DNA of 63,686 nucleotides from Candidatus Heimdallarchaeota archaeon (GCA_030603365.1 JAUVXV010000017.1:1-63686), one strand, 5' to 3'; counted from the first letter of the stretch, positions 1,217 to 56,187 are shown. Made by a program: numbers and translations. The notes: a model not told the origin generated them from the sequence alone.

Positions 1217-1337
1217 AAGTTCACCTATTAATTAGTCACAAATAGTCAACTAATATTCTATTAAGAATATTTCATAAAAACCTTTCCTTGAATTTTCTGA
1301 AACAATTTGTTAGAAAAAAAATAGAATAAAAGAGAAG

Positions 1338-2156: not shown

Positions 2157-2303
2157 AATTTCACCTTTTTGGTTCAAACTCATCTAATTAAGTTGACCAA
2201 CATATATAAAGTAAGACAATAATAAAAATGTTTTCCAAGAATTAATGAAATAATAAAACATTTCTTTGATTTGTTGTGAAATAGAAAAAGATGAGAAAAA
2301 GAA

Positions 2304-3128
2304 TTATCTTCTTTTTCGTTTTGCTAAAGCTACAACTGCTGCGATAACACTTAGACCTAGGAAACTGTAAGCCCAGCTGTAAGGGGCAATGTTTGCGTAA
2401 CCACTGTCTATTAGTATATGAAATGATCCTGTAATATAGTCTGATTCAATTTCCATTGTCAATTCACTTTTACCCAATAAACCTGTTTTTGTGTTTATTG
2501 TTTGTTCAAATTCCATGGATCCTGCCGAAGTCAGTTCTGTAGCTCCATCTGACATAGTCATATCTACACTCATATACTGATAAATTACAAAAACATCACC
2601 TTTCAGTGAATATTTGAGTTCTGTATTCATAGAACCTACAATTGTAATTCCATACATTTCGTAAGAAATGCTTGTACTATATTCATCGTTTAGTTCCACT
2701 AGTTCTTCAAAGATCTGGTCATAAATCTGATAAGTTCCTGTTGTATTAGTATAGGTAACTGGATTGATAAAGTATCCTCCAAAAGCATAATAACCGTAAC
2801 CTATCCAGAAATTTTCAGGGTTTATTACTTTGACATCATCAACAAAGACATCAAACCAAACACCAGTTGCGTTATCAGGGTCTTCAAGAATAACAAATCT
2901 TATCTTAGCACCTTGAGTTAAATCGCTGTCACCGATATAGAAATAATCAGTATATGTAGCAAAATCACCAGTGGTTACCAATTTTGACACGGTCCATTCA
3001 AATTCTGAATCAACAGCGATTTCGTCAGAATAACCTAGTTCTCCAGTTGGGTAATCAGCTGTTGAGGTAATTGGCATGAAAGCCAAACATGTTAGCAAAA
3101 TTATTGCTGAAATTATTTTTTTATTCAT
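2304..3128 (-). CDS. ADYPTG-family anchored surface protein
   Basis: Paralog; APYSWAYSFLG-TM-KRKRR tail. Confidence 0.85.
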   Translation of the reverse strand: MNKKIISAIILLTCLAFMPITSTADYPTGELGYSDEIAVDSEFEWTVSKLVTTGDFATYTDYFYIGDSDLTQGAKIRFVILEDPDNATGVWFDVFVDDVKVINPENFWIGYGYYAFGGYFINPVTYTNTTGTYQIYDQIFEELVELNDEYSTSISYEMYGITIVGSMNTELKYSLKGDVFVIYQYMSVDMTMSDGATELTSAGSMEFEQTINTKTGLLGKSELTMEIESDYITGSFHILIDSGYANIAPYSWAYSFLGLSVIAAVVALAKRKRR

Positions 3129-3144
3129 AAGTTCACCTTTCTTA

Positions 3145-3164
3145 AGTTTACTTTTGAGTAAACT
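3145..3164 (-). promoter_or_regulatory. 5'-leader inverted repeat AGTTTACT-N4-AGTAAACT (equivalents at 114-140, 4106-4127, 5056-5077, 6032-6053)
   Basis: Inverted repeat between the TATA-like box and the SD of array genes. Confidence 0.6.
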
Positions 3165-3258
3165 AATGTTTACTTAGCACTGTTTTATTAAAAATCTTTC
3201 CTTGAGTTTATAAAGGATATAAAATAGTAAAAAAAGCAGGAAAAAGGGGTAAAGAGAA

Positions 3259-4086
3259 TTAGTTCCTCTTTCTTTTAGCTAAAGCTACTACTGCAGCTAT
3301 TACAGTTATACCTAAGAAACTGTAAGCCCATTCATAGGGAGTCTTGGCATAGTCACTATCTATTAACAGATGTGCTTTACCAACACCGTAGGACATATCA
3401 ATATCAGCCAATATTTCAACTTTACCTACTAGACCAGTTCTAATATTGATTGTCGTTTCTGTCATCATCTCTCTATACCCTGATTCATCATGACCATTTC
3501 CTTTTATGGAATAAGAATCATAACTGTACATATAAATTGAGAAAACATCCCCTTGTAGTTTGAATTCAAGCTTTTCTGAGTAGGTAGATTCATAGGTTAA
3601 ACCACCATATACTTCAGAATGGCTATCGCCATAATCATAGTTTTCATCTTCAAGTTCTTCATAGAGTTGTTCATAGATATTGTAGGTTCCTGTAGCATTG
3701 GTGTAAGTTACTGGGGTGATGAAGAAACCACCATATGTGTAAAACATACCATAATACATCAGATAACCAAGATAGGGATCAGTAATTTTGATATCATTCA
3801 GATAAACATCAAACCAGGTATCATTAGCTTCATCGGGATCTTCAAGGATTTTAACTTTGATTTTATCACCTTGGCTTAATGTGGCATTTCCAATATAGAT
3901 ATATTCAGTAAAGTCTTCCATGTCACCTGTATTTTCAAATATTTTGACTGTCCATTCAAACTCATCATCAGTATTAATCTCATCAGAATATCCTAGTTCC
4001 CCAGTAGGGTAATCAGCTGTTGATGTAATCGGTATAAATGCTAAACAAGTTAGCAACATTACTGCTGTAATAATTTTTTTATTCAT
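3259..4086 (-). CDS. ADYPTG-family anchored surface protein
   Basis: Paralog; start at MNKK; TPYEWAYSFLG-TM-KRKRN tail. Confidence 0.85.
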   Translation of the reverse strand: MNKKIITAVMLLTCLAFIPITSTADYPTGELGYSDEINTDDEFEWTVKIFENTGDMEDFTEYIYIGNATLSQGDKIKVKILEDPDEANDTWFDVYLNDIKITDPYLGYLMYYGMFYTYGGFFITPVTYTNATGTYNIYEQLYEELEDENYDYGDSHSEVYGGLTYESTYSEKLEFKLQGDVFSIYMYSYDSYSIKGNGHDESGYREMMTETTINIRTGLVGKVEILADIDMSYGVGKAHLLIDSDYAKTPYEWAYSFLGITVIAAVVALAKRKRN

Positions 4087-4222
4087 AGATTCACCATTCA
4101 TTTTAAGCTTACTTAATTTAGTAAACTAACCTAATGTAAGTAGGATTGAAATAAAAACATTTCGAGCAATTTTGAATCATATAAAAATACAAATAAAAAA
4201 ATAAAAAAAATATAAAGAGAAG

Positions 4223-5038
4223 TTATTTTTTCTTTCTTTTTGCTAAAGCTATAACTGCAGCTATAACTGTTATACCTAGAAAACTAAAAGCCCAATTGAA
4301 AGGTATTCCTGTATATTTGCTAGTTAATTGGAAATCTAGAGTTCCAACAGCTTCACTTCCATACATCGTCATATCGATTTCAATATACGTTTTACTGTGA
4401 CCTAAGAGACCATTTTCAGTATTTACAGACATTTCTAGTTCAGCTTTCACAGACATATAATTTGTGTTATCACCAAAGAACACTTCTAAGTAAAAACTTG
4501 ATGTAAATGTAGAACCAGTTAAGGTATATTGATTTCGAACTATGTATCTGTAAGTATATCCGTTAGAAGTCTCATCTTTGGAATAATCTTCCGCATCCGC
4601 AACAAATTCTTCAAAGATTTGTTCATAAAGGTTGTAAGTTCCAGTTGTATTAGTATAAGTAACAGGACTAATAAAGAAGTCACTATATCCATAGCCTTGA
4701 GCATAACCTAACCATATATTATTAGGATTGGTAACTTTTGCTCCATCAACATAAATATCGTACCAAATACCTATGGCATCATCAGGATCTTCAAGGACAA
4801 CTAATCTAATCTTATTCCCTTGTTCTAAGATAGTATCCCCAATATAGAAATCATCATCGTAGTATTTAGTAATATCACCAGTTAATTGAAGAGTTTTCAC
4901 AGTCCATTCAAATTCAGAATCTACAGCAATTTCATCTGAATATCCAAGATTACCAGTTGGAAAATCAGCAGAGGTTGTAATCGGACTTAAAGCGAAACAT
5001 GTAAACACTATTAGTGCAGTAAATATTTTTTTATTCAT
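4223..5038 (-). CDS. ADYPTG-family anchored surface protein
   Basis: Paralog; start at MNKK with SD AGGTGA; IPFNWAFSFLG-TM-KRKKK tail. Confidence 0.85.
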   Translation of the reverse strand: MNKKIFTALIVFTCFALSPITTSADFPTGNLGYSDEIAVDSEFEWTVKTLQLTGDITKYYDDDFYIGDTILEQGNKIRLVVLEDPDDAIGIWYDIYVDGAKVTNPNNIWLGYAQGYGYSDFFISPVTYTNTTGTYNLYEQIFEEFVADAEDYSKDETSNGYTYRYIVRNQYTLTGSTFTSSFYLEVFFGDNTNYMSVKAELEMSVNTENGLLGHSKTYIEIDMTMYGSEAVGTLDFQLTSKYTGIPFNWAFSFLGITVIAAVIALAKRKKK

Positions 5039-5174
5039 AGATTCACCTAATTTTCGTTTACTTTTCAAAAAGTAAACTATCATTATAGAGAACATTATAA
5101 AATTTAAGTGTTTCGAGAACAATTTGCTAATGAAAATACAGTTAAAAAACTAAAGAAAAATAAGGAAAAGAGAA

Positions 5175-6014
5175 TTAATTTCTCTTTCTTTTAGCTAAAG
5201 CTACTACTGCTGCTATTACAGTTATACCTAAGAAGCTGTAAGCCCAGTTATAAGGAGCATTACCATAAGGACTATCGATTTTAATGTGTACTGAACCTGA
5301 CATATAATCAGTAGTTGCTTCAACACTCAGTTCTAAATAACCGAATAAACCAGTTTGTGTATTGATTGTAGCTTCACCTATAACTTCTATTTCACTAGTC
5401 AATTCAGTGTAACCACCTGTTATGGTTGCATATTGGTACATATAGACTGATAAAACCATGACTGATCCTTTTTCTTCAATAGTTATTTTTTGCGAATAAG
5501 TTCCTGAAAAGGTGTAACCATTATATACTGTTGAATAACTATCACCATCATCATAGAAGTATGGCTCAATTTCTTCTAGCATCTGTTCATAAATGTTGTA
5601 AGTTCCAGTAGCATTAGTATATGTTGTTGGTAAGATTAAAAAGGGTGTAAAACCATAATAACTAAAGGAAGTGTATAGATAACCTGCTTCTGGTACAAGA
5701 ACATCGTTAATATATAGTTCATACCAAACATCAGTTGCTGTATCAGGATCTGCCAGAATAACAACCTTGTAGATGTCACCTGCTTTTGGGAGCATATCAC
5801 CATATCCATAATAAGATATGTAGGATTCATAATAGTCTTTCATGTCTGCAAAGTCACCTGTAAATTCATATTTACTCAATGTCCACTTGTATTCATTACC
5901 TGGCTGAATTTCGTCGGAGTAACCTAGTTCTCCTGTTGGATAGTCAGCTGAGGTAAATGGGACAAATGCTAGACATGCTAGCAAAACAATTGCTGTAATA
6001 ATTTTTTTATTCAT
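5175..6014 (-). CDS. ADYPTG-family anchored surface protein
   Basis: Paralog; start at MNKK with SD AGGTGA; APYNWAYSFLG-TM-KRKRN tail. Confidence 0.85.
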   Translation of the reverse strand: MNKKIITAIVLLACLAFVPFTSADYPTGELGYSDEIQPGNEYKWTLSKYEFTGDFADMKDYYESYISYYGYGDMLPKAGDIYKVVILADPDTATDVWYELYINDVLVPEAGYLYTSFSYYGFTPFLILPTTYTNATGTYNIYEQMLEEIEPYFYDDGDSYSTVYNGYTFSGTYSQKITIEEKGSVMVLSVYMYQYATITGGYTELTSEIEVIGEATINTQTGLFGYLELSVEATTDYMSGSVHIKIDSPYGNAPYNWAYSFLGITVIAAVVALAKRKRN

Positions 6015-6230
6015 AGATTCACCTAATTTTCGTTTACCTTCCAAGAAGTAAACTATCATTAAATAGAACAACATCAAATTTAAGTATTTCGAAAACAATT
6101 TTGCAGAATATAAACATGAAATTCAAATCACAATTTCAATATTAAAACCACATATTCTTTTAGATATATTAAAAAGCCTCCATGTTAGTTATTTAAACAC
6201 CTAAGAAATGAAAAGAGGGTATGACAAGAT

Positions 6231-44800: not shown

Positions 44801-45664
44801 TCAATATGAAAAAATCAGTTGGATATTATACTCATCCACAAGCTCTTTCATTTCTTTTTCAGAAGGTTTTTTCTCATAATTTTTTGCAGCTTCAATTATC
44901 TTAGGTAGTATTTGCATATCTCCAGCAGTGATTAGAAAACTGTTCTCTAAACCTAATGACCAATGAACTGCTTTATCAATTGCATCTTGAGTTTCTAAAG
45001 GCTCATAAAAATAAGTATTATGTTTCCTAGGACGGTTCTCCCATGGTCTCCGAGCTACAGATTTAATCGTTTGCACTGCAATATTACGCTTAAGACAAAG
45101 CTCCATTAGTTCATTAAACTCCTTTCTATAACGTGGATTTTGCAGCTGTAAATAGTTGTAAGGTAATAGGATAGTATCAAAATCAAAATGCTCCAGGCTA
45201 CGCATATGCACAGCTGGTACTTTGCTACCGTGACCTGTTACTCCCAAGAACCTCACCAGACCCTTATCAAGAGCTTCGATGAATGCTTCCAATGCACCTC
45301 CAGGTCCCATAGCTTTTTCCCAACCTTGAGGATTAGTCAGACCATGCATTTGCCAAAGGTCTATATAGTCTACTTTCATTCGACTTAAAGAGAGTTCAAG
45401 ATCTTTCCAAGCTCCTTTATAGGAACGGCTACGAGTCTTAGTTGCTAGAAAGAAATCATTGCGATGGTTCTCCATCCATGAGCCAATACGCTTCTCAGCA
45501 TCTCCATAAAGTGGTGCTGTGTCAATGTGATTGATACCACTCTCTAATAAGAGATGAAGAATGCGATCAGCCTCCTCTTGTGTTGCCTTACTTAAGGCAT
45601 ATGCACCAAATATTATTTGAGTACTTTTGTGTCCAGTGCGACCAAATTGGTTTCTGAGTATCAT
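44801..45664 (-). CDS. Aldo/keto reductase
   Basis: GRTG, DTAPLYG, LATK, IDLWQMH, LGVTGH. Confidence 0.9.
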   Translation of the reverse strand: MILRNQFGRTGHKSTQIIFGAYALSKATQEEADRILHLLLESGINHIDTAPLYGDAEKRIGSWMENHRNDFFLATKTRSRSYKGAWKDLELSLSRMKVDYIDLWQMHGLTNPQGWEKAMGPGGALEAFIEALDKGLVRFLGVTGHGSKVPAVHMRSLEHFDFDTILLPYNYLQLQNPRYRKEFNELMELCLKRNIAVQTIKSVARRPWENRPRKHNTYFYEPLETQDAIDKAVHWSLGLENSFLITAGDMQILPKIIEAAKNYEKKPSEKEMKELVDEYNIQLIFSY

Positions 45665-45914: not shown

Positions 45915-45934
45915 GAACTAGTTAATACTAGTTC
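45915..45934 (-). terminator. GAACTAG-loop-CTAGTTC hairpin at the stop codon followed by a T-rich tract (also 48956-48975, 49174-49192, 52278-52297, 54242-54260)
   Basis: Five conserved copies, one at the 3' end of each unit. Confidence 0.65.
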
Positions 45935-47499
45935 AGTTTAGTCTTTTTCTTACGAGTTCTCATAACTACAAACATGATTGCAATTGCGACGATTATCAAA
46001 TTTGAAACAATGCCAAATTCGTGAACAGTCGAAAGTATATATTCAACGGATTCACAATTTGAGTGAGTACTGTTTTTTACTCCATCACTGGCTACAATAA
46101 CATAGAAGTATATTCCTTCTGATGGAAGTGTGTCTTCATAGGAGGTTGTGATTTCAGTATTAATTGGAGTTAAAATTTCAACCGATGAAATATAGGAAGT
46201 TGAACGATAGACATAGTATACTGATGCACCTGAAACATCATTCCAGTCCAAAAGAATAGTATCATTATCTGTAGGATTAGGTAAAATTGGAGATAATTCA
46301 GGAGCTATAGGAGGACCATCGAGTTGTTTATAGAAGATATCCGCATCTGTTCCCGCTCCTGCATAATCAGTCCAATCTGTCCACGCTAGATGCACATTCC
46401 CGAAAGTATCGACAGCAAGAGAAGGAAAATCAGATTGCTCTGTACTTTCTGTGGAAACGACTTCTGTAGTATTCCACGAAGAGGTAGCAGCGTCCCAGCG
46501 TTTGTAGAAGATATCCCGATCTGTTCCCGCGCTAGTATAATTAGTATCATCATCCCACGCTATATACACATTCTTTGCAGAATCAACTGCAAGAGAAGGT
46601 TTCTGAGAATGCTCTGTACTTTCTGTGGAAACAACCTCTGTTGTAGTCCATGAGGAATTAGAAGCGTTCCATCGTCTATAGAAGATATCCACATCTGTTC
46701 CCGCTCCAGCATAATCAGCTCTATCTTCCCACGCGATATGTAAATTCCCTAAAGTATCAGTAGCAAGAGAAGGAAAATCAGAACCACTTGTACTTACTGT
46801 AGAAACGACTTCTGTTGTAGTCCACGAAGAGGTAGAAACATCCCAGCGTTTATAGAAAATATCCCAATTTCCGCTAGCATAATCAGTCCAATCTTCCCAC
46901 GCGATATGCACATTCCCGAAAGTATCGACAGCAAGAGAAGGAAAATAAGATTCACCTGTACTTTCTGTAGAAACGACTTCTGTAGTATTCCACGAAGAGG
47001 TAGCAGCGTCCCAGCGTTTGTAGAAAATATCACCATCTATTCCATTCCCAGCATAATCAGTCCAATCCTGCCACGTGATATGCACATTCCCGAAAGTATC
47101 GACAGCAAGAGAAAGATAAAAAGATGCAGCTGTACTTTCTGTAGAAACGACTTCTGTTGTAGTCCACGAAGAGGTAGCAGCGTCCCAGCGTTTATAGAAA
47201 ATATCTGGATCTGTTCCCGCTCCTGCATAATCAGCTCTATCATCCCAAGCTACATGGATATTCCCTTTATCATCCACAGCAAGAGAAGGGTAGTAAGATT
47301 CAGCATCACTTACAGTAGAAATAACTTCTGTTATAGTCCATGTCCAAACAGAACTATCTAGGGAATCTGTGTTGAATTGATTTAATTCTTCTTTTACTAG
47401 AGTTTTTGCATTAACTATATTAAGAGAAGAAGAGCTTAGTAAAAAACCAATAATGAAAACACTTAAACTTATAGAGAGTTTCTTTTTTTTCTTTTTCAT
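45928..47499 (-). CDS. Beta-propeller repeat surface protein (6 blades), FN3-like domain, EF-CTERM anchor
   Basis: Signal peptide from MKKKK at 47499; six ~58-aa repeats; HEFG-TM-RKKK tail. Confidence 0.85.
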   Translation of the reverse strand: MKKKKKKLSISLSVFIIGFLLSSSSLNIVNAKTLVKEELNQFNTDSLDSSVWTWTITEVISTVSDAESYYPSLAVDDKGNIHVAWDDRADYAGAGTDPDIFYKRWDAATSSWTTTEVVSTESTAASFYLSLAVDTFGNVHITWQDWTDYAGNGIDGDIFYKRWDAATSSWNTTEVVSTESTGESYFPSLAVDTFGNVHIAWEDWTDYASGNWDIFYKRWDVSTSSWTTTEVVSTVSTSGSDFPSLATDTLGNLHIAWEDRADYAGAGTDVDIFYRRWNASNSSWTTTEVVSTESTEHSQKPSLAVDSAKNVYIAWDDDTNYTSAGTDRDIFYKRWDAATSSWNTTEVVSTESTEQSDFPSLAVDTFGNVHLAWTDWTDYAGAGTDADIFYKQLDGPPIAPELSPILPNPTDNDTILLDWNDVSGASVYYVYRSTSYISSVEILTPINTEITTSYEDTLPSEGIYFYVIVASDGVKNSTHSNCESVEYILSTVHEFGIVSNLIIVAIAIMFVVMRTRKKKTKLN

Positions 47500-47933
47500 A
47501 ATAATAACCTTTTTATGATTATTAATTTCGTTCAGGTTTAAACGAAATTTTTCGTAACTATGTACATTAGGTGCTAGGAATAAAAGCATTTTCCCTTTTT
47601 TATTCTACTTATCTACAGATTCTTTAGCATTTTTTCCAGACTTGGGTTTTCGTATCATTCTCTAAAAAAGACAAAATTCATATGACAGAAAAATATTTTA
47701 AAATCATGAAGATTTTAATAAATGTTAAAATATGAAATTATGATTACAGTCCGTATAACGAGTTGAAAATTACAGGTGTGGTGGAATCGATAATTCTCAG
47801 GGGAGAATTCCTTGTTAATTTAAACTTATTATTTTGTTCCATTTTAATTTCAATACACAACCAAACACTTACATTAGGTTTACAATTTTTATTATGATAA
47901 AAATCTAACAATGAAATATTAAAATGATTTGAG

Positions 47934-48509
47934 ATGACAAAATACGAATTTGGTATAAATATTCAAAACATTGTTGCTGCTGTAGATTTGTTTACTACAA
48001 TAGATCTTGTGAAAATTTATCATTTGCTTATTGATGAAGAAGGATTGTATATAGATTATAATCCCGACAAATTTCCTGGGGTGATACTTAAAATAAAAGA
48101 TCCTAAAGTTTCATGTCTTATTTTCTATTCTGGCAAATTAGTAATTACTGGTGGTAAGACAACAGATGATGTAACTAAAGGAGTGAAAGAAATTTCTAAG
48201 ATACTCAAGTCTGTAGGAACAATAATTACTGAAGAACCTGAAATTGTTATACACAATATAGTTGCTTCAGGAAATTTCAATCACAAACAGTTGAATCTCG
48301 AGCTTATTGCTCTTTGGCTTGACCAGAGTATGTATGAACCAGAACAATTCCCTGGATTAATCTTTAGATTAAAAGAGCCTAAGACGGTTCTTCTCCTATT
48401 TCAATCTGGAAATCTTGTCTGTACTGGAGCAAAAAATGAAAAGCAAGTATTTGAAGCTGTTGAAAATACATACAAAAAACTGGAAGAGATAAATGCTTTT
48501 GATTTCTAG
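47934..48509 (+). CDS. tbp: TATA-box binding protein
   Basis: Two repeats: NIVA...YNPDKFPG...LIFYSGKLVITG and NIVAS...YEPEQFPG...LLFQSGNLVCTGAK. Confidence 0.95.
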   Translation: MTKYEFGINIQNIVAAVDLFTTIDLVKIYHLLIDEEGLYIDYNPDKFPGVILKIKDPKVSCLIFYSGKLVITGGKTTDDVTKGVKEISKILKSVGTIITEEPEIVIHNIVASGNFNHKQLNLELIALWLDQSMYEPEQFPGLIFRLKEPKTVLLLFQSGNLVCTGAKNEKQVFEAVENTYKKLEEINAFDF

Positions 48510-48634
48510 AATGCTTGATATAAACCACTAGAGCACAAGAATTTCTACCACTCTAATCAAAAGAAAGTTATTCATCAAACTCTTCTTTTTTGTGTGGTTT
48601 TTCTTTAATTTAATTAGCCAAGAACCAACGATCT

Positions 48635-48803
48635 TCAGCATCTCCATAAAGTGGTGCTGTGTCAATATGATTAATACCGCCCTCTAATAAGAGATAAAGA
48701 ATCAATCAGTTTCCTCTTGATTGGCTTTACTTAAAGCATAAGTCCAAAATATTATTCGTGAGATTTTATGTCCCGTCCTTCCAAAGTGTTTTCTCGGAAT
48801 CAT
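48635..48803 (-). pseudogene. Frameshifted duplicate of the aldo/keto reductase 5' end
   Basis: MIPRKHFGRTGHK...ALSKANQEETD, frameshift, ILYLLLEGGINHIDTAPLYGDAE; aligns with ~45495-45664. Confidence 0.85.
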
Positions 48804-48955
48804 TACTTAATACTCCTAATGTGTTTAGTATTCTTAAGTAATTCAAAGAAAATGAGCTTAAATATAATCTTTTTCGAAACAATAACAAAAAGCTACATCT
48901 ATGTGGATGAAGCTAATGATATTGTTCTGGTCAGATCAGAAGAAAAATAGAGAAG

Positions 48956-49094
48956 GAACTAGTAAAGACTAGTTCATTGTATTTTGTTTTTTGTTTTTTC
49001 ATAATATCAACCTTCTTAATTATCAATCCCGTTTAGAATAAACGAGATTTCTCAAATTGAATACATAAGGTGTTCAAAATAAAAACATTTTCCC
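48956..49094 (-). pseudogene. Empty propeller-gene unit (promoter, 5' hairpin and start fused to the stop region and 3' hairpin)
   Basis: All flanking motifs of the full units are present; ATG AAA AAA CAA AAA ACA AAA joins almost directly to TGAACTAG. Confidence 0.8.
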
Positions 49095-49190
49095 TTCCTT
49101 TTCAAGAAATATAAGATTCAGACTACTTGTTGTGAAATAAGTAGTGATTTTATTACAAAAAAAAGGAAAATACGAACTAGTTAATCTAGT

Positions 49191-52160
49191 TCATTTTAAT
49201 TTATTTTTACGAGTTCTCATAATTACAATTAAGAAGGTAACAGTAGCAAGCATCAAACCTGAAATTGTACTAAACTCGTAAATAACAGGTACATACACAA
49301 TACTCCAACAATTTGAAAGAGTGCTGTTTCCGATAAAGTTACTGGCAACAATAACATAGTAGAATGTTCCTACTGTTGGAAGTGTGTCGATATAGAAATG
49401 TGTGACAGAGTCACCAATTGGAGTAAGACCTTCAACCGATAAGATATTGGAAGTTGAACGAAAGATATAGTATAATGAAGCTCCTGGTAAATCATTCCAG
49501 TTCAAGGATAATGTAGCAATATAGGTAGGATTAGGTAAAATAGGAGACAATATAGGAGCAGTAGGAGGACCTGCGAAGTGTTTAAGGAAAATATCTGAAT
49601 CAATTCCTGAACTTGCATAATCAGTATAATCTTCCCACGCTACATGGATATATCCTATAGAATCAATAGCAAGAGAGGGACGAACAGAATCATCTGTACT
49701 TTCTGTGGAAACCACTTCTGTTGCATTCCACGAGGAGGTAGAAGCATCCCAGTATTTATAGAAAATATCCGAATCTAATCCAGCTCCAGCATAATCAGTC
49801 TCATCATGCCAAGCTACATGGACATTTCCTTTATCATCCACAGCAAGAGAAGGATAGAGAGAATAGTCTGTACTTTCTGTGGAAACGACTTCAGTAGTAG
49901 TCCAGGAGGAGGTAGAGTTATCCCAATGTTTGTAGAAAATATCCCAGTCTGTTCCACCTGCACCAGCATAATCTGTGTAATCCAACCACACTACATGGAC
50001 ATTCCCTGAAGAATCTACAGCAAGAGAAGGTTCGAAAGAAGTATCTGTACTTTCAGTAGAAATTACTTCTGTCACAATCCAGGAGGAAGTGGAAGCGTTC
50101 CAGAATTTGTAGAAAATATCATAATCCCCTCCAGCTCCTGCATAAGCAGTTCTATCATCCCAAGCTACATGGATATTCCCTTTATCATCCACAGCAAGAG
50201 AAGGAGCACTAGAATGACCTGTACTTTCTGAAGAAACCACCTCTGTTGTGGTCCAGGAGGAGGTAGAAGAGTTCCAATGTTTATAGAAGATATCTATATC
50301 TGTTCCACTACCTCCATAAGCAGTTCTATCATTCCAAGCTACATGGACATTCCCTGAAGAATCTACAGCAAGAGAAGGAGAATAAGAATTATCTGTACTT
50401 TCGGTAGAAACCACCTCTGTTGTGGTCCAGGAGGAGATAGAAGAGTCCCATCGTTTATAAAAAATATCTGTATCTGATCCAGCACCTGCATAATCAGTCT
50501 CATCATACCACACTACATGGACATTCCCTAAAGTATCGACAGTAAGAGAAGGAACCCAAGAAATATGTGTACTTTCTGTGGATACAACTTCTGTTGTATC
50601 CCATGAGGAGATAGAAGCATTCCAGAAATTGTAGAAAATATCCGAATCTAATCCAGCTCCAGTATAATCAGTCTCATCATGCCAAGCTATATAGACATTT
50701 CCTGCAGCATCAGTAGCAAGAGAAGGACGATTAGAATCATCTGTACTTTCTGTGGAAACGACTTCTGTTGTGGTCCAGGAGGAGGAGGAAGCTTTCCAGA
50801 ATTTGTAGAAAATATCTCTGTCAACACCAGCACCAGCATAGTCTGTATAATCATGCCAAGCTACATGAACATTCCCTACAGAATCCACTGCAAGAGAAGG
50901 ATAAGCAGAATCTAATATACTTCCTATGGAAACCACTTCTGTTGTATTCCATGTGGAGATAGAAGCGTTCCAGAATTTGTAGAAAATATCCCTATCCCCT
51001 CCAGCTCCAGCATAAGCAGTTCTATCTTCCCAAGCTATATACACATTCCCAGCTGAATCTTCCCCAAGAGAAGGTTCATAAGAATCAAATGTACTTTCGG
51101 TGGAAATGACTTCAGTAGTAGTCCAGGAAGAGATAGAATCATTCCAACGTTTATAGAAAATATCTGGATCTGTTCCTGCACCAGCATAATCAGTACCATC
51201 ATACCACGTTATATGGACATTTCCTAAAGAATCCACTGCAAGAGAAGGACGAACAGAATAGTTTGTACTTTCGGTGGAAACGACTTCAGTAGTAGTCCAG
51301 GAGGAGGAAGAAGCGTTCCAATGTTTGTAGAAAATATCTGAATATATTCCTGCACCTGCATAATCAGTACCATCTTCCCACGTTATATGGACATTTCCTA
51401 CAGAATCAGTAGCAAGAGAAGGAAAAAAAGAGTAATCTGTACTTTCGGTAGAAACAACTTCTGTTGTGGTCCATGAGGAGATAGAAGCGTCCCATCGTTT
51501 ATAAAAAATATCCTTATCTGATCCTGCACCTGCATAATCAGTGCCATCTTCCCACGTTATATGCACATTTCCTACAGCATCAACAGCAATAGAAGTATGA
51601 TGAGAACCATCTGTGCTTTCTGTGGAAACCACTTCTGTTGTGGTCCATGAAGAGGTAGAAGCGTTCCAATGTTTGTAGAAAATATCTGTATCTGTTCCAC
51701 TTCCTGCATAAGCAGTGTAATCACTCCAAGTTATATGCACATTCCCTGCAGCATCAACAGCAAGTGAAGGATTTATAGATTGACTTGTACTTTCTGTGGA
51801 AACAACTTCTGTTGAGGTCCAGGAGGAGATAGAAGCGTTCCAACGTTTGTAAAATATATCATAATCTGTTCCAGTCCTCACATTATCAGTATAATCCTCC
51901 CACGCTATATGCACATTCCCTGCTTCATCTGTAGCAAGAGAAGGAGAAGTAGAAAAATGTTCACTTTCTGTGGACACAACTTCTGTTATAGTCCATTTCC
52001 AATCCGATTGATCAAAAGAATCTGTTGTATGTTTTTTATAGTTTTCTTCTGGGAGAGCTTGTGTGTTAAGAGTCTTAAGAAAAGAAGTGCTTAGTAATAG
52101 ACCAATAATGAGAATAATTAAACTTATAGAAAATTTATTGTTTTTGCTTTTCACTTTCAT
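49191..52160 (-). CDS. Beta-propeller repeat surface protein (14 blades), FN3-like domain, EF-CTERM anchor
   Basis: Signal peptide, 14 repeats counted, YEFS-TM-RKNK tail. Confidence 0.88.
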   Translation of the reverse strand: MKVKSKNNKFSISLIILIIGLLLSTSFLKTLNTQALPEENYKKHTTDSFDQSDWKWTITEVVSTESEHFSTSPSLATDEAGNVHIAWEDYTDNVRTGTDYDIFYKRWNASISSWTSTEVVSTESTSQSINPSLAVDAAGNVHITWSDYTAYAGSGTDTDIFYKHWNASTSSWTTTEVVSTESTDGSHHTSIAVDAVGNVHITWEDGTDYAGAGSDKDIFYKRWDASISSWTTTEVVSTESTDYSFFPSLATDSVGNVHITWEDGTDYAGAGIYSDIFYKHWNASSSSWTTTEVVSTESTNYSVRPSLAVDSLGNVHITWYDGTDYAGAGTDPDIFYKRWNDSISSWTTTEVISTESTFDSYEPSLGEDSAGNVYIAWEDRTAYAGAGGDRDIFYKFWNASISTWNTTEVVSIGSILDSAYPSLAVDSVGNVHVAWHDYTDYAGAGVDRDIFYKFWKASSSSWTTTEVVSTESTDDSNRPSLATDAAGNVYIAWHDETDYTGAGLDSDIFYNFWNASISSWDTTEVVSTESTHISWVPSLTVDTLGNVHVVWYDETDYAGAGSDTDIFYKRWDSSISSWTTTEVVSTESTDNSYSPSLAVDSSGNVHVAWNDRTAYGGSGTDIDIFYKHWNSSTSSWTTTEVVSSESTGHSSAPSLAVDDKGNIHVAWDDRTAYAGAGGDYDIFYKFWNASTSSWIVTEVISTESTDTSFEPSLAVDSSGNVHVVWLDYTDYAGAGGTDWDIFYKHWDNSTSSWTTTEVVSTESTDYSLYPSLAVDDKGNVHVAWHDETDYAGAGLDSDIFYKYWDASTSSWNATEVVSTESTDDSVRPSLAIDSIGYIHVAWEDYTDYASSGIDSDIFLKHFAGPPTAPILSPILPNPTYIATLSLNWNDLPGASLYYIFRSTSNILSVEGLTPIGDSVTHFYIDTLPTVGTFYYVIVASNFIGNSTLSNCWSIVYVPVIYEFSTISGLMLATVTFLIVIMRTRKNKLK

Positions 52161-52290
52161 AATATCAACTCTTTTTAGATTGTCAACTTAGTTTAAACAA
52201 GAGAGTTTTTTCAAACTGTTAACATTAAGCGTCAGAAATAAAAACATTTTCTAGAAATCAAAGATGAAAAAAAGTGAGAACTAGAATTGT

Positions 52291-54045
52291 CTAGTTCAGT
52301 TTAGAATTTTTCTTACGAGTTCTAATAACTACAAACAACAAAGCGAAAGTTCCAAAAATCCAAAGTGAATCAATTTTAGTTTTAGTTGTTGTTACTATTT
52401 TATATTCAATATCTTGACAATTAGAATGCGAGCTGTTCCCTGCAAAGTTTTCAGCAACAACAACATAGTAGTATACTCCTTCAGAAGGTAAAGTGTCGAT
52501 ATAGTCACTTGAGGAAACAGTTGTAATGGGTACGAGTCCTTCAACAGTTGAGATGTTAGATGTGGAGCGATAAACATAGTAAGTATCTGCCCTAAAAACA
52601 TTATTCCAATCAAGATTTACAATATCATTTTCAGTAGGGTTAGGGGAAATAGAAGCAAGTTCAGGAGCAGCTGGTGGTCCTGCAAAAAGCTTATAGAAAA
52701 TATCAGATCCTGGTCCTAAATCACCATAATCAGTAAAATCTTCCCACGCTATATGGACAGTACCTAAAGTATCGACCGCAAGCGAAGGATGGTAAGAATC
52801 AGAGGTATGTGGGTAATTAGCTATACTTTCGGTGGAAACTACTTCTGTTATAGTCCAAGTGGAGGTAGTAGCGTCCCAGCGTTTGTAGAAAATATCATTA
52901 TCTTCCCCAGCTCCAGCATAATCAGTTTCATCATCCCATGTTATGTGGACATCCCCTGCAGAATCGACAGCAAGAGAAGGATTCGTAGACCAATCTACAC
53001 TTTCAGTGGAAACTACTTCTGTCGTAATCCAAGTGGAGGTAGTAGCGTCCCAGCGTTTGTAGAAAATATCATTATCTGTTCCACTCCCCGCATAATCAGT
53101 ATAATCTACCCACGCTATATGGACATTCCCAAGAGAATCCACAGCAAGAGAAGGGGAGTCTGAATTATCTGCACTTTGGGTGGAAACTACTTCTGTCGTA
53201 ATCCAAGTGGAGGTAGTAGCGTCCCAGCGTTTGTAGAAAATATCATTATCTGTTCCACTCCCCGCATAATCAGTATCATCACTCCACGCTATATGGACAT
53301 TCCCGAAAATATCCACAGCAAGAGAAGGAAACCTAGAAAAAGCTGTACTTTCGGTGGAAACAAGTTCTGTAGTGGTCCACGAGGAGGAAGAAGCGTTCCA
53401 GCGTTTGTAGAAAATGTCCCAATCAAACTCTGCATCATACCATGCTATGTGGACATTCCCGAAAATATCCACAGCAAGAGAAGGAAACCTAGAACGATCT
53501 GTACTTTCTGTGGAAACAAGTTCTGTTGTAGTCCACGAGGAGGAAGAAGCATCCCAGTATTTGTAGAAGATATCCTGATCTGTTCCTGCTCCAGCATAAT
53601 CAGTTGCGTCATGCCACGCTATGTGGACATTCCCGAAAATATCCACAGCAAGAGAAGGACCCCATGAAAAATCTGTACTTTCTGTGGAAACAAGTTCTAT
53701 TGTTGTCCACGAGGAGGAAGAAGCGTCCCAGCGTTTGTAGAAAATATCTTCATCTGCTCCACTACCTGCCAAATAAACACTTTCATCCATCCATGCTACG
53801 TGGACGTTCCCTAACGTATCGACAGCAAGAGAAGGTACATGAGAACTACTATAACTTTCGGAGGAAACTACCTCTGTCGTATTCCATTTCCAAGTAGAAC
53901 GATCAAAGGAATCTATTTTGAATTGATTGTTTTTTTCCTCTAGTAGAGCTTTTGCTTTAAATGTATTTGGACTTGAAGCTGTAATTAAGAAATAAATAAT
54001 GAGAATACTTAAGCTTATAGAAAATTTATTCTTTTTGTTTTTCAT
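52291..54045 (-). CDS. Beta-propeller repeat surface protein (7 blades), FN3-like domain, TM anchor
   Basis: Signal peptide, 7 repeats, TTTKT-TM-RKK tail. Confidence 0.88.
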   Translation of the reverse strand: MKNKKNKFSISLSILIIYFLITASSPNTFKAKALLEEKNNQFKIDSFDRSTWKWNTTEVVSSESYSSSHVPSLAVDTLGNVHVAWMDESVYLAGSGADEDIFYKRWDASSSSWTTIELVSTESTDFSWGPSLAVDIFGNVHIAWHDATDYAGAGTDQDIFYKYWDASSSSWTTTELVSTESTDRSRFPSLAVDIFGNVHIAWYDAEFDWDIFYKRWNASSSSWTTTELVSTESTAFSRFPSLAVDIFGNVHIAWSDDTDYAGSGTDNDIFYKRWDATTSTWITTEVVSTQSADNSDSPSLAVDSLGNVHIAWVDYTDYAGSGTDNDIFYKRWDATTSTWITTEVVSTESVDWSTNPSLAVDSAGDVHITWDDETDYAGAGEDNDIFYKRWDATTSTWTITEVVSTESIANYPHTSDSYHPSLAVDTLGTVHIAWEDFTDYGDLGPGSDIFYKLFAGPPAAPELASISPNPTENDIVNLDWNNVFRADTYYVYRSTSNISTVEGLVPITTVSSSDYIDTLPSEGVYYYVVVAENFAGNSSHSNCQDIEYKIVTTTKTKIDSLWIFGTFALLFVVIRTRKKNSKLN

Positions 54046-54066
54046 AATAACACTTCTTTAAATTTT

Positions 54067-54091
54067 AATCTCGTTTAGAACAAACGAGATT
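54067..54091 (-). promoter_or_regulatory. 5'-leader inverted repeat AATCTCGTTT-N5-AAACGAGATT (equivalents at ~47524-47549, ~49025-49049, ~56027-56050)
   Basis: Conserved position about 30 bp downstream of a GGAAAA-N-TTTTAT BRE/TATA-like motif in the propeller units. Confidence 0.7.
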
Positions 54092-54253
54092 TTTCAAATT
54101 GTTTACATTGGGAGCTTACAATAAAAGTATTTTCCCTTTAGTTCAGATTTACCTCTAATTTACATTCTCATTTGGCACGAAAAAAGACAAAATTCATATG
54201 AAAATTGAAGCGAAATTCCGATGTAAAATTAAAAAAAGTAAGAACTAGTTAAA

Positions 54254-55999
54254 CTAGTTCGGTTTAGAAGTTTTCTTACGAATTTTCATGATAACTACTG
54301 AGATGGCAAGAGTACCAAGTATCAAACTGGAAATTATTCCAAATTCTTCAACAATAGGGGCTATTTCAAAATCCATTATGGAACTCTGGGCACTATTACC
54401 ACTGGTATCATAAGAAATAAGGTAGTAATCTATGGTTGAGCCTGCGGCAAAAGGACCAATAATAGCACTGTATATCGTCTCTGAAGCAATCATGGAAACA
54501 CTAAACCATGAACCTCCATCAACACGAAAATAAAGAGTAACGTTATGAACTTCAACATTATCGGTAACATTTGCACTAATAGTTATCTGATCATCAAAAG
54601 TGGGTTCTGAAGGAAAATAAGTAACATCATTAAGTAAAGGAGCTGAAAAATCAACTGTTGTACCTTTATAGAAAATATCCGAATCTGCTCCAGCACCTTC
54701 GTAATCTGTGGTATCATACCATACAACATGATAATCACAACCAGTATCGGCGACATTAATCGAAGGATAGTAAGAACCACCTGTGCTTTCTGTTGAAACC
54801 ACTTCTGTCGTAGTCCATAAGGAGGTAGAAGTGTCTCCGCGCTTATAGAAAATATCCCAATCTGTTCCATTCCCAACATAATCAGTTGAATCTTGCCATA
54901 TTATATTTACATTCCCTTCAGCATCTGTATCAAGAGAAGACCAACCAGAAGCTTCTGTACTCTCTGTAGAAACCACTTCTGTCGTAGTCCACGAGGAGAT
55001 AGAAGCGTTCCAAAATTTATAGAAAATATCTGAATCGGTACCACAATTAGTATAATTAGTATGATCTTCCCACACTATATGTACAATCCCAGTAGCATCG
55101 GTAGTGAGAGAGGAATGGATAGAGGTAGCTGTACTCTCAGTGGAAATCACTTCTGTAGTGGTCCATATGGATGTGGAAGCTTCCCAACGTTTATAGAAAA
55201 TATCCTGATCTATTCCACTTCCAGCATAATCAGTATCATCAAACCACGTGATATGGATATTACCTGCAACATCAGTAGCAAGAGAAGGATCACCAGAATT
55301 AGAGTAACTTTCTGTGGAAACTACTTCTGTCGTAGTCCATGAGGAGGTAGAAGCGTTCCAACATCTATAGTAAACATCCCAATCTGTTCCACTCCAATCT
55401 TGCCACGCTATATGTACATTCCCTAAAATATCTACTGCAAGAGAAGGCTGAGAAGCTTCTGTACTCTCTGTAGAAACAAGCTCTGTTGAGGTCCACGAGG
55501 AGATAGAAGCGTTCCATTGTTTGTAGAAGATGTACCCATCTACTCTAGCTCCACCATAATCAGTATATTCTTCCCACGCTAAATGTACATTCCCAGCAAC
55601 ATCAACAGCAATGGAAGGATTGGAAGAGATTTCTGTACTCTCAGTAGAAACAACCTCTGTCGTAGTCCACGAAGAAGTTAATTTGTTCCATCTTTTGTAG
55701 AAAATATCATAATCTTCGCCTGCGCCTAAGATATCAGTTTGATCATCCCACGTTACATGCACATTCCCGATAGAATCAACGGTTTGGGATGGATGATAAG
55801 ATTTACCAGAACTTTCTGTTGAAACTACTTCCGTTGTATCCAATTCCCAGATTGAACCACTAAAGGAATCTGTATTGTACTTGTGTTTTTCATCTAGTAG
55901 AGCTTTTGTGCTAACAATATTGAGAGAAGAAGCGCTTATTAAAAAACCAATAATTAGAACACTTAAGCTCATAAATAATTTAGTTTTTTTCTTTTTCAT
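54254..55999 (-). CDS. Beta-propeller repeat surface protein (7 blades), different Ig-like domain, EF-CTERM anchor
   Basis: Signal peptide, 7 repeats, ITISANVTD...NVTLYF domain, EEFG-TM-RKK tail. Confidence 0.88.
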   Translation of the reverse strand: MKKKKTKLFMSLSVLIIGFLISASSLNIVSTKALLDEKHKYNTDSFSGSIWELDTTEVVSTESSGKSYHPSQTVDSIGNVHVTWDDQTDILGAGEDYDIFYKRWNKLTSSWTTTEVVSTESTEISSNPSIAVDVAGNVHLAWEEYTDYGGARVDGYIFYKQWNASISSWTSTELVSTESTEASQPSLAVDILGNVHIAWQDWSGTDWDVYYRCWNASTSSWTTTEVVSTESYSNSGDPSLATDVAGNIHITWFDDTDYAGSGIDQDIFYKRWEASTSIWTTTEVISTESTATSIHSSLTTDATGIVHIVWEDHTNYTNCGTDSDIFYKFWNASISSWTTTEVVSTESTEASGWSSLDTDAEGNVNIIWQDSTDYVGNGTDWDIFYKRGDTSTSLWTTTEVVSTESTGGSYYPSINVADTGCDYHVVWYDTTDYEGAGADSDIFYKGTTVDFSAPLLNDVTYFPSEPTFDDQITISANVTDNVEVHNVTLYFRVDGGSWFSVSMIASETIYSAIIGPFAAGSTIDYYLISYDTSGNSAQSSIMDFEIAPIVEEFGIISSLILGTLAISVVIMKIRKKTSKPN

Positions 56000-56165
56000 A
56001 ATAACAACCTATTTTGTTAATCTATTATTTCGTTTAAATTTACACGAAAATTATCGAATCATGTACAATAATGATTGGGAATAAAAACATTTTCCTTCTT
56101 TGATTTCTATTTCTTTGCTACAGTTTTACTATTTAATTCATAACTTAAATTCTTTATAACTCTCC

Positions 56166-56187
56166 AAAAAAGGCAAAATTCATATGA
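56166..56187. repeat. Dispersed repeat AAAAAAGRCAAAATTCATATGA (also 47664-47685, 54180-54201)
   Basis: Three near-exact copies upstream of propeller promoters. Confidence 0.7.

What the first reader, a model, noticed from the sequence alone, without database searches (positions are those of the whole stretch)
45915..56187. Candidate variable-receptor system: unit-like array of beta-propeller surface proteins with recombining blades and variable binding positions
Seen: four anchored surface genes contain 6, 14, 7 and 7 copies of a ~58-aa repeat, counts that fit whole 6- or 7-bladed propellers (14 = 2x7). The blade framework is nearly invariant, even in DNA. Variation concentrates at fixed slots: STEST-[xx]-S-[xx]-PS, W-[x]-D-[x] and G-[x]-D-[x]-DIF. 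These slots are rich in Y/F/W/H/R/D/S (YY, FY, YF, VR, NR, WV, FE, WG, RF). Each gene lies in a unit with the same order of promoter, 5' hairpin, ORF and 3' hairpin, and one unit is empty. Inference: a fixed scaffold with variable surface residues, diversified by homologous recombination between blades, conceptually like LRR-based variable receptors. It could serve adhesion, partner recognition or virus escape in an Asgard archaeon.
Basis: partly seen in the sequence, partly recalled or inferred. Interest (0 to 1): 0.85.

Follow-up and report, generated by a model that had tools for sequence, protein, structure and literature searches.

The report
Hypervariable propeller surface-protein gene family
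A Heimdall-group Asgard archaeon carries a tandem cluster of membrane-anchored seven-bladed propeller surface proteins in which a few fixed loop positions per blade evolve unusually fast, so this is an inherited repertoire of probable binding proteins rather than a programmed, vertebrate-like variable-receptor system.

Summary
Four minus-strand genes carry 6, 14, 7 and 7 copies of a 58-aa blade. Five promoter/leader-hairpin/terminator units are present, and one has no gene body.

One detail is overstated: blade DNA is 58-87% identical (mean 72%), not nearly invariant.

The genes belong to an uncharacterised multigene family of Heimdallarchaeaceae. This genome has 12 genes and 89 blades, and every sampled genome of the genus has copies. 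The architecture is signal peptide, SBBP-type propeller, FN3-like stalk, TM helix and a short basic tail.

AlphaFold gives a confident 7-blade ring. The 14-blade protein folds as two 7-blade rings. The closest solved fold is the CylK propeller (Z 43).

By strand topology, eight of eleven variable slots lie in the D-A and B-C loops, the conventional top face. These slots show pN/pS of about 1.6-2.4, against about 0.3-0.45 for the scaffold.

Short identical tracts (97 and 54 nt), a mosaic ortholog and 0-4 genes at this locus among congeners point to gene conversion and birth-and-death turnover.

No silent blade cassettes and no reverse transcriptase were found, so a programmed VLR-like mechanism is unsupported.

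Other first readers of this scan flagged the same family on other DNA.

The parts
45928..47499 (-). Gene A: signal peptide, 6 blades, FN3-like domain, TM helix and basic tail. The ORF runs on to 47589, but that ATG lies in the promoter box.
   Evidence: Pfam SBBP 47 bits
45915..45934 (-). Terminator-like hairpin of unit A, overlapping the stop codon and followed by a T run.
47524..47593 (-). Unit A promoter-like box (47579-47593) and leader hairpin (about 47524-47549).
47934..48509 (+). TATA-binding protein gene embedded in the array. It is not part of the family.
   Evidence: Pfam TBP 177 bits; 92-99% nt identity to the G023 copy
48620..48830 (-). Frameshifted fragment of an aldo/keto reductase. 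It is a partial copy of the gene at 44801-45664 that lies downstream of gene A.
48956..49092 (-). Empty unit, read as a deletion scar: promoter box (49078-49092), leader hairpin, ATG (49002-49000) plus 8 Lys-rich codons, joined to the terminator hairpin (48956-48975).
49191..52160 (-). Gene B: 14 contiguous blades, modelled as two 7-blade rings (residues 52-460 and 472-866), then FN3-like domain and TM anchor. Terminator at 49172-49194; promoter box at 52237-52251.
52291..54045 (-). Gene C: 7 blades, FN3-like domain and hydrophobic C-terminal anchor segment. Terminator at 52278-52297; promoter box at 54120-54134. Contains a 97-nt tract identical between blades 4/5 and 5/6.
54254..55999 (-). 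Gene D: 7 blades, a different beta-rich C-terminal domain and a TM anchor. Terminator at 54242-54260; promoter box at 56080-56094. It has a mosaic ortholog in congener G023.

Best explanation
The region is a tandem array of four intact genes plus one deleted copy. The genes belong to a multigene family that is greatly expanded in one genus of Heimdallarchaeaceae.

Each gene encodes a type-I surface protein. A Sec-type signal peptide is followed by a beta-propeller built of 58-aa SBBP-type blades. Then come an FN3-like or other beta-rich stalk, one TM helix and a cytoplasmic tail of about 10 basic residues.

Each blade has an almost fixed scaffold, including conserved acidic residues. By analogy with the CylK propeller, these acidic residues may hold blade-bridging calcium ions. 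Each blade also presents about eight hypervariable side chains in its D-A and B-C loops, rich in W, Y, H and D. Together these form a ligand-binding top face, or one small site per blade.

Diversity is inherited in the genome. Genes duplicate and are deleted in tandem. Blades are gained, lost and patched by unequal crossing-over and short-tract gene conversion. Selection favours new residues at the loop slots while purifying the scaffold.

Shown here:
- the domain architecture and the fold
- the positions of the variable slots in the strand topology
- pN/pS above 1 at the slots
- the conversion tracts
- the copy-number turnover at the locus
- the absence of silent cassettes

Inferred:
- that the proteins bind ligands (glycans, or surfaces of partner cells, particles or viruses)
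- calcium binding
- what agent drives the selection
For: Architecture and fold:
- Translations show the signal peptide, the blades and the hydrophobic C-terminal anchor with basic tail. A hydropathy scan finds TM-like segments in A, B and D.
- Pfam SBBP is above its cut-off for A, B and C.
- The stalk matches the Fn3-like protein 3mpc by profile, E 2.4e-5.
- The AlphaFold model of C has pLDDT 87.8 and pTM 0.82, with a 7-blade ring, a beta-sandwich and a TM helix.
- The closest solved fold is the CylK propeller: Z 43.4, rmsd 2.3 A over 370 residues. The next rows are near Z 30.
- The model of B aligns to 7-blade rings over 52-460 and 472-866.

Topology:
- The sequence repeat runs strand D, A, B, C, and the N-terminal D strand closes the ring (DSSP).
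- Slots 19, 20, 22 and 23 lie in the D-A loop. Slots 40, 42, 52 and 54 lie in the long B-C loop.
- The CylK paper places both loop types on the top face and describes long internal loops and blade-bridging Ca sites (PMC8916777).

Selection:
- Among the 34 blades, scaffold dS is 0.63 and dN 0.13, while slot dN is 1.30.
- In 35 independent nearest-neighbour blade pairs from 35 genes, pN(slots)/pS is 1.56 (bootstrap 1.25-1.85), against 0.3-0.45 for the scaffold.
- In the low-divergence blades of the D ortholog pair, the ratio at slots is about 2.4, Fisher p 0.018.
- The top slots are enriched 4.1x in W, 2.8x in Y and 2.8x in H, and depleted in K, P, I, L and V.

Recombination and turnover:
- Exact tracts of 97 nt (C4/C5) and 54 nt (A1/B11) include variable slots.
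- In a run-length permutation test, the longest run was 67 polymorphic sites against a permuted maximum of 49. 35 of 561 pairs had p<=0.01.
- Blades of the same gene are more alike than blades at the same position in different genes. 43 of 133 nearest neighbours lie in the same gene.
- In the D ortholog, pS is 0.01-0.14 in blades 1 and 5-7 and in the C-domain, but 0.36-0.51 in blades 3-4.
- The locus between ADH and the amidohydrolase holds 0, 0, 0, 1, 1, 1, 2, 3, at least 3 or 4 family genes in ten genomes of the genus.

Family size and distribution:
- This genome has 12 genes and 89 blades, with no orphan blades.
- 24 of 24 sampled congeners have copies.
- The family is patchy elsewhere in the phylum.
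- More than 860 database homologs were found, and the names listed are 'hypothetical protein' or evident misannotations such as 'ribosomal protein L31'.
Against: - No model coordinates were available, so face assignment rests on strand topology and analogy, not on measured solvent exposure.
- Three variable slots (30, 31 and 60) lie in A-B and C-D elements on the opposite face.
- The pN/pS estimates use counting methods on short, recombining repeats.
- The slot set was partly defined on related data.
- Gene conversion or constraint on synonymous sites could depress pS. Scaffold codons rare in this genome are conserved family-wide.
- No ligand, expression or localisation data exist.
- Gene A, with 6 blades, was not folded and may be impaired.
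- Pfam SBBP is below its cut-off for D.
Confidence: 0.72

Rival explanations
1. A programmed variable-receptor or antigenic-variation system. Blades or cassettes would be moved into expression sites within a lineage by directed gene conversion, as in lamprey VLR, Neisseria pilE/pilS or Borrelia vlsE. The 'empty unit' would be an acceptor site.
For: Short identical tracts between non-homologous blades carry variable slots. The flanking unit structure is uniform, and one unit has a promoter but no body. Codons flanking the slots are strongly conserved.
Against: All 12 genomic copies are full-length genes. A six-frame HMM scan finds no orphan or promoterless blades. No RVT_1 reverse transcriptase was found in the 89%-complete genome. 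Blades differ by 13-42% in DNA, so exchanges are old and rare. The empty unit joins Lys-rich start codons to the Lys-rich tail and terminator, as expected of a deletion, and it sits beside a truncated reductase pseudogene. There are no homopolymer tracts longer than 8 nt that could drive phase variation.
Confidence: 0.05
2. Structural envelope proteins or enzymes whose loops are simply unconstrained. On this view the variation is neutral drift on a stable Ca-stabilised propeller, and the apparent pN/pS above 1 comes from suppressed synonymous change (conversion or codon constraint) and from choosing the slots after seeing the data.
For: Scaffold codons, including rare ones (TCC, GGG, CGC, TTC), are conserved across species, so synonymous sites do not behave neutrally. 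The nearest solved fold, CylK, is an enzyme, and sialidase-like hydrolases appear among the Foldseek hits.
Against: The slot composition is biased towards W, Y and H and depleted in K, P, I, L and V. This is typical of binding hot spots rather than random loops. The ratio stays above 1 in independent pairs at all divergence levels. It is also above 1 in an ortholog pair with slots defined on other genomes. No non-repeat residues are conserved that could form one active site. The invariant columns are per-blade scaffold residues. The CylK active site needs a second domain that is absent here.
Confidence: 0.15
3. An assembly artefact: the repeats or the array were created by mis-assembly of a repetitive metagenomic region.
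For: The genome is a metagenome-assembled genome in 17 contigs. Tandem repeats are prone to collapse or expansion.
Against: Repeat copies are only 58-87% identical, and the longest exact repeat is 97 nt. Reads can therefore place them uniquely. All four reading frames are intact. The same 7 x 58-aa architecture recurs in dozens of independent assemblies. Double-propeller forms also exist elsewhere.
Confidence: 0.03

Closest known systems
CylK C-terminal beta-propeller (PDB 7ron, 7fh6; PMC8916777)
   Same: A seven-bladed propeller with the same blade geometry (Z 43, rmsd 2.3 A, about 370 residues). It has long internal B-C loops on the top face. Ca sites at the blade junctions are described for CylK, and conserved acidic residues sit at the corresponding places here.
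   Different: Sequence identity is 12%. CylK is a soluble cyanobacterial alkylating enzyme whose active site needs an N-terminal Ca-binding domain that is absent here. The proteins here are membrane-anchored, multi-copy and hypervariable on the face that CylK buries.
Pfam SBBP (PF06739) beta-propeller repeat proteins; NCBIfam 'PDIAV motif-containing lipoprotein' (NF053835)
   Same: The repeat motif around PSLAVD-xx-GN-hH-hh-W matches the SBBP model above its cut-off in A, B and C. B exceeds the NF053835 cut-off (100.9 against 90 bits) by summed repeats.
   Different: Both names describe only a repeat, not a function. D is below the SBBP cut-off. The 58-aa blade with fixed hypervariable slots, the FN3 stalk and the TM anchor have no family model of their own in the libraries searched.
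Seven-bladed propeller lectins of Photorhabdus (PLL, PHL; e.g. PDB 8q82, 5c9o)
   Same: A seven-blade ring of near-identical repeats that can offer one small binding site per blade (Z about 30). This is a plausible functional analogy for multivalent glycan binding.
   Different: The Z score is no higher than for unrelated WD40 proteins. Sugar-binding residues were not compared. The lectins are soluble and are not known to me as hypervariable multigene arrays.
Lamprey variable lymphocyte receptors and bacterial cassette-based antigenic variation (pilE/pilS, vlsE)
   Same: A repeat scaffold with variable positions on a binding surface, and gene conversion as a source of mosaicism.
   Different: Those systems have one incomplete or expressed gene plus many silent cassettes, and they diversify within an individual or a clone. 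Here there are only complete genes, no cassettes and no diversifying enzyme found. The conversion tracts are old.
Germline-encoded repeat-receptor families under diversifying selection (plant LRR receptors, WD40 top-face hot spots)
   Same: Tandem arrays, birth-and-death turnover, unequal crossing-over changing the repeat number, and positive selection on solvent-exposed repeat positions. A Helarchaeota homolog couples the same propeller to a TM helix and a cytoplasmic TIR domain.
   Different: The scaffold differs (propeller, not LRR). The window genes have only a tail of about 10 residues and no signalling domain. The comparison rests on my general knowledge, not on a test.

Membership tests
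Pfam SBBP (PF06739) beta-propeller repeat | Score above the curated cut-off of 20.5 bits | tested here: met
   A 47.4, B 80.5 and C 52.6 bits. D scores only 13.5 bits, but is 52-53% identical to C.
Seven-bladed beta-propeller fold | A closed ring of seven four-stranded blades with N-terminal strand closure | tested here: met
   The model of C has pLDDT 87.8 and matches CylK at Z 43.4 over residues 55-455. B aligns as two rings, 52-460 and 472-866. The 6-blade gene A was not folded.
Fibronectin type III-like stalk domain | Profile match to a solved Fn3-like domain | tested here: met
   The family profile matches 3mpc_A at E 2.4e-5 over profile positions 472-537. D carries a different beta-rich domain.
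VLR-like or cassette-based programmed variation | Silent, promoterless donor cassettes beside an expression site | tested here: not met
   A six-frame blade-HMM scan of the genome finds 89 blades, all inside 12 ORFs of 486-998 aa.
VLR-like or cassette-based programmed variation | Variation within one population or clone | not testable with these tools
Diversity-generating retroelement target | A reverse transcriptase with a template repeat near the variable region | tested here: not met
   No RVT_1 match in the genome, which is 89% complete. Slots 33, 35 and 45 do not follow an NNY codon pattern.
BNR/sialidase propellers | Asp-box S-x-D-x-G-x-T-W and a catalytic Arg triad | tested here: inconclusive
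   No BNR family matched the four proteins at E<=1. Some homologs carry precomputed BNR_4 hits. Sialidases appear only as generic Foldseek hits. The blade motif has a different spacing from an Asp-box by eye.
Archaeosortase substrates (PGF-/PEF-CTERM) | A C-terminal tripartite signal recognised by the NCBIfam models, plus an archaeosortase gene | tested here: inconclusive
   A, B and D have x-E-F-[GS] before the TM helix and a basic tail. No CTERM model matched at E<=1. An Exosortase_EpsH-family gene exists on contig 14.

The most novel reading that the evidence does not exclude
The family is an archaeal, germline-encoded recognition repertoire. It would consist of about a dozen propeller receptors per cell whose top-face residues are kept diverse by selection and by blade-to-blade gene conversion. 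It would be used to recognise partner cells, prey or particles, or viruses. In some Asgard lineages it would be wired to intracellular TIR domains, a Toll-like-receptor-type layout built on a propeller instead of LRRs.
Probability: 0.2. Interest if true: 0.85.

Novelty: new variant of a known kind. Interest (0 to 1): 0.55.

Why it matters
Asgard archaea are the closest known relatives of eukaryotes, and their biology is thought to depend on contacts with partner organisms. Almost nothing is known about the molecules on their surface that mediate recognition.

This family is large. It has 12 genes here and hundreds of homologs in databases. It is specific to Asgard lineages, carries no functional annotation, and shows the evolutionary signature of a binding interface under an arms race or changing ligands.

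It offers a defined set of ectodomains to express and test on glycans, cells and viruses. It is also a case study of repeat-scaffold diversification by gene conversion in archaea.

It does not show a new diversification mechanism.

Tried and rejected
- DGR idea: the NNT/NNY bias at slots 13, 14 and 17 looked DGR-like. Slots 33, 35 and 45 do not follow it, the bias follows from the D/N/Y/H/F-rich composition, and no reverse transcriptase was found. Rejected.
- Phase variation by homopolymer slippage: the longest runs in the region are 8 nt. Not supported.
- Sequence-profile search of the PDB with the family alignment found only the Fn3-like stalk and nothing for the propeller. The propeller relationship to CylK is visible by fold only.
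- Positional orthology of blades: I expected blade k to match blade k across paralogs. The signal is weak (0.740 against a background of 0.732) and weaker than same-gene similarity (0.761).
- Donor search for the divergent blades 2-4 of gene D: the nearest blades in the window are 75-78% identical, about as close as the ortholog's blades (72-83%). No recent donor could be named.
- Literature: no paper with Asgard plus SBBP. Searches for Heimdallarchaeia propeller surface proteins and for hypervariable archaeal propellers gave nothing on this family.
- Mapping entropy onto model coordinates was not possible, because models are not exposed to the script machine. Face assignment is by topology.

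Full report
**Observation.** The region holds four intact minus-strand ORFs, called A to D here.
- A: 45928-47589
- B: 49191-52160
- C: 52291-54045
- D: 54254-55999

A motif count gives 6, 14, 7 and 7 repeats at 58-aa spacing, with a few shorter or longer blades. Tandem Repeats Finder reports a 174-nt period with 70-79% matches.

In an alignment of the 34 blades, column entropy is 2.7-3.8 bits at ST-xx-S-xx-PS, W-x-D-x and G-x-D-x-D. It is 2.2-2.9 bits at VD-xx-G and K-x-W. Most scaffold columns are below 1 bit and all are at or below about 2 bits.

The claim that the framework is nearly invariant in DNA is overstated. Blade pairs are 58-87% identical, mean 72%, and the longest exact repeat is 97 nt. 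This also makes an assembly artefact unlikely.

**Unit structure.** Five copies of GAAAATRYTTTTATT lie on the minus strand about 85 nt upstream of a start codon, against 0.3 matches expected by chance. I read this as an archaeal BRE/TATA-like box, which is inference. Each box is followed by a leader hairpin, kept in four of the five units with one compensatory pair, and by a purine-rich stretch before the ATG.

Five GAACTAG-loop-CTAGTTC hairpins with T runs overlap or closely follow the stop codons.

The ATG at 47589 of gene A is part of its promoter box. The likely start is therefore 47499.

**The 'empty' unit.** This unit (48956-49092) consists of the box, the hairpin, an ATG and eight Lys-rich codons, joined to the terminator hairpin. 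Both ends of every family gene are Lys-rich A-tracts (MKKKK... and ...RKKKTKLN). The simplest reading, an inference, is a deletion of the gene body between these microhomologies.

Next to the scar lies a frameshifted fragment of the aldo/keto reductase whose intact copy sits downstream of gene A. The scar is thus debris of a segmental duplication. A TBP gene lies between A and the scar.

**What the proteins are.** Each protein has five parts:
- a signal peptide
- the propeller
- a beta-sandwich of about 90 aa
- one TM helix
- a short basic tail

Pfam recognises only the SBBP propeller repeat: A 47, B 80 and C 53 bits against a cut-off of 20.5, with D below it. The stalk of A-C matches a solved Fn3-like protein by profile.

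AlphaFold2 with 84 homologs gives a confident model of C, with pLDDT 87.8 and pTM 0.82. By structural alignment, the CylK propeller stands far above all other chains. It scores Z 43.4, rmsd 2.3 A over 370 residues at 12% identity, while the next rows are near Z 30.

The model of B (pLDDT 77) aligns to seven-blade rings over 52-460 and again over 472-866, with a confidence dip at 457-460. So 14 blades does mean two rings. Most other double-propeller homologs have an FN3 domain between the rings, which B lacks.

**Where the variable slots lie.** The sequence repeat runs strand D (WTTTEVVS), loop, strand A (PSLAVD), tight turn, strand B (NVHIAW), a long loop, then strand C (DIFYKRW). The N-terminal D strand closes the last blade (DSSP).

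Slots 19, 20, 22 and 23 are in the D-A loop. Slots 40, 42, 52 and 54 flank the long B-C loop. Both loop types form the top face of propellers. In CylK the internal loops are long, and the blade-connecting loops carry bridging Ca sites (PMC8916777).

Slots 30 and 31 (A-B turn) and 60 (strand C) are on the other side. So eight of the eleven slots, including the six most variable, share one face.

The alternation x-D-x with invariant Asp suggests that the Asp side chains hold the loop, possibly through Ca, while the x side chains point outward. This is inference.

Compared with the proteome, the top slots are enriched 4.1x in W, 2.8x in Y and 2.8x in H. They are depleted in K, P, I, L and V.

**Selection.**
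- Among the 34 blades, scaffold dS is 0.63 and dN 0.13, while slot dN is 1.30.
- In 35 mutually nearest, non-overlapping blade pairs from 35 genes, pN at the slots over pS is 1.56 (bootstrap 1.25-1.85). The scaffold gives 0.3-0.45.
- Gene D has a 79%-identical ortholog next to the same amidohydrolase in congener G023. In its low-divergence blades, 11 of 32 slot codons differ against 23 of 200 others. Slot pN over pooled pS is 2.4 (Fisher p 0.018). The slots for this test were defined on other genomes.

Caveats apply. These are counting methods on short recombining repeats. Scaffold codons, including codons rare in this genome, are conserved family-wide. Synonymous sites are therefore not fully neutral. 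A transition-biased, AT-driven mutation spectrum may explain part of this, which is inference.

**Recombination and turnover.**
- Exact tracts of 97 nt (C4/C5, and 50 nt shared with C6), 56 nt (within A) and 54 nt (A1 against B11, across genes and blade positions) include variable slots.
- In a GENECONV-style permutation, the longest run was 67 polymorphic sites against a permuted maximum of 49. 35 of 561 pairs reached p<=0.01 against 5.6 expected.
- Blades of one gene are more alike (0.761) than same-position blades of different genes (0.740). 43 of 133 nearest neighbours lie in the same gene.
- The D ortholog pair is mosaic. pS is 0.01-0.14 in blades 1 and 5-7 and in the C-domain, but 0.36-0.51 in blades 3-4. 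The flanking amidohydrolase has pS 0.57.
- TBP and the 3' half of D are 91-99% identical in DNA to G023, against about 81% for the flank. This indicates a recent exchange between species.
- Between the conserved ADH and amidohydrolase genes, ten genomes of the genus hold 0, 0, 0, 1, 1, 1, 2, 3, at least 3 and 4 family genes.

**Is it a programmed system?** I found no support.
- A six-frame blade-HMM scan of the genome finds 89 blades, all within 12 full-length genes, and no orphan cassettes.
- No reverse transcriptase was found in the genome, which is 89% complete.
- No long homopolymers are present.

**Distribution and prior knowledge.**
- Homologs number more than 860. They come mostly from Heimdallarchaeota and Heimdallarchaeaceae metagenome bins, and the names listed are 'hypothetical protein' or evident misannotations.
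- All 24 sampled congeners have copies.
- Elsewhere in the phylum the family is patchy: 54 of 251 genomes have a match, and four genomes from three other genera of the same family have none.
- I found no paper on this family.
- Other first readers of this scan flagged the same family in other genomes and on other contigs of this one. No follow-up was listed for those notes.

**A related architecture elsewhere.** A Helarchaeota homolog has two such propellers, Ig-like spacers, a TM helix and a cytoplasmic TIR domain. This supports a sensing or binding role for the ectodomain. The window genes have no signalling tail.

**Verdict.** The finding is real and striking, but it is a germline multigene family of probable binding proteins. 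It evolves by duplication, deletion, gene conversion and diversifying selection. It is not a VLR-like diversification system.

Noticed in passing
window 47934-48509 (+) and 47848-48547: The TBP gene inside the array is 92-99% identical in DNA to its counterpart in congener G023. The nearby amidohydrolase is about 81% identical (pS 0.57). TBP and the 3' half of gene D seem to have been exchanged recently between species.
   Followed up: partly
P0153 (Helarchaeota homolog, not in the window): Signal peptide, two propellers of this blade family with Ig-like spacers, a TM helix at 1227-1245 and a cytoplasmic TIR domain at 1263-1367. This is a Toll-like-receptor-type layout built on a propeller.
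   Followed up: partly
window 48620-48830 (-): Frameshifted fragment of about 65 codons of the aldo/keto reductase gene, whose intact copy is at 44801-45664. It marks a segmental duplication of propeller unit plus reductase.
   Followed up: partly
window genes A-D, C-D loop of the blades (W-N-x-S/T): N-x-S/T sequons recur in the loop after strand C (3, 10, 2 and 3 copies in A, B, C and D), on the face opposite the main variable slots. The Helarchaeota homolog has N-Y-T at the same place. These are possible N-glycosylation sites.
   Followed up: no
window 54254-54660 (C-terminal domain of gene D) against L020: Between orthologs, the C-terminal beta-rich domain has pN 0.055 but pS 0.016. Blade 6 has pN 0.115 and pS 0.013. 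Nonsynonymous change exceeds synonymous change in recently shared DNA.
   Followed up: partly
window 371-6098 (-): Six tandem minus-strand ORFs of 274-307 aa, separated by gaps of about 50-130 nt, form another paralog array. A one-mismatch copy of the propeller-unit promoter box lies at 2221-2235, upstream of one of them.
   Followed up: no
blade scaffold codons, window 45928-55999 and homologs in L002-L012: Codons rare in this genome (TCC Ser, GGG Gly, CGC Arg, TTC Phe) are kept at fixed scaffold columns in blades of many genes and species. All Val columns, in contrast, are scrambled. Synonymous conservation is strongly site-dependent.
   Followed up: partly
G000 contig 14, 219918-220505 (+): An Exosortase_EpsH-family (archaeosortase-like) gene is present in the genome. 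Family proteins carry x-E-F-[GS] before the C-terminal TM helix, which could be a sorting signal.
   Followed up: no
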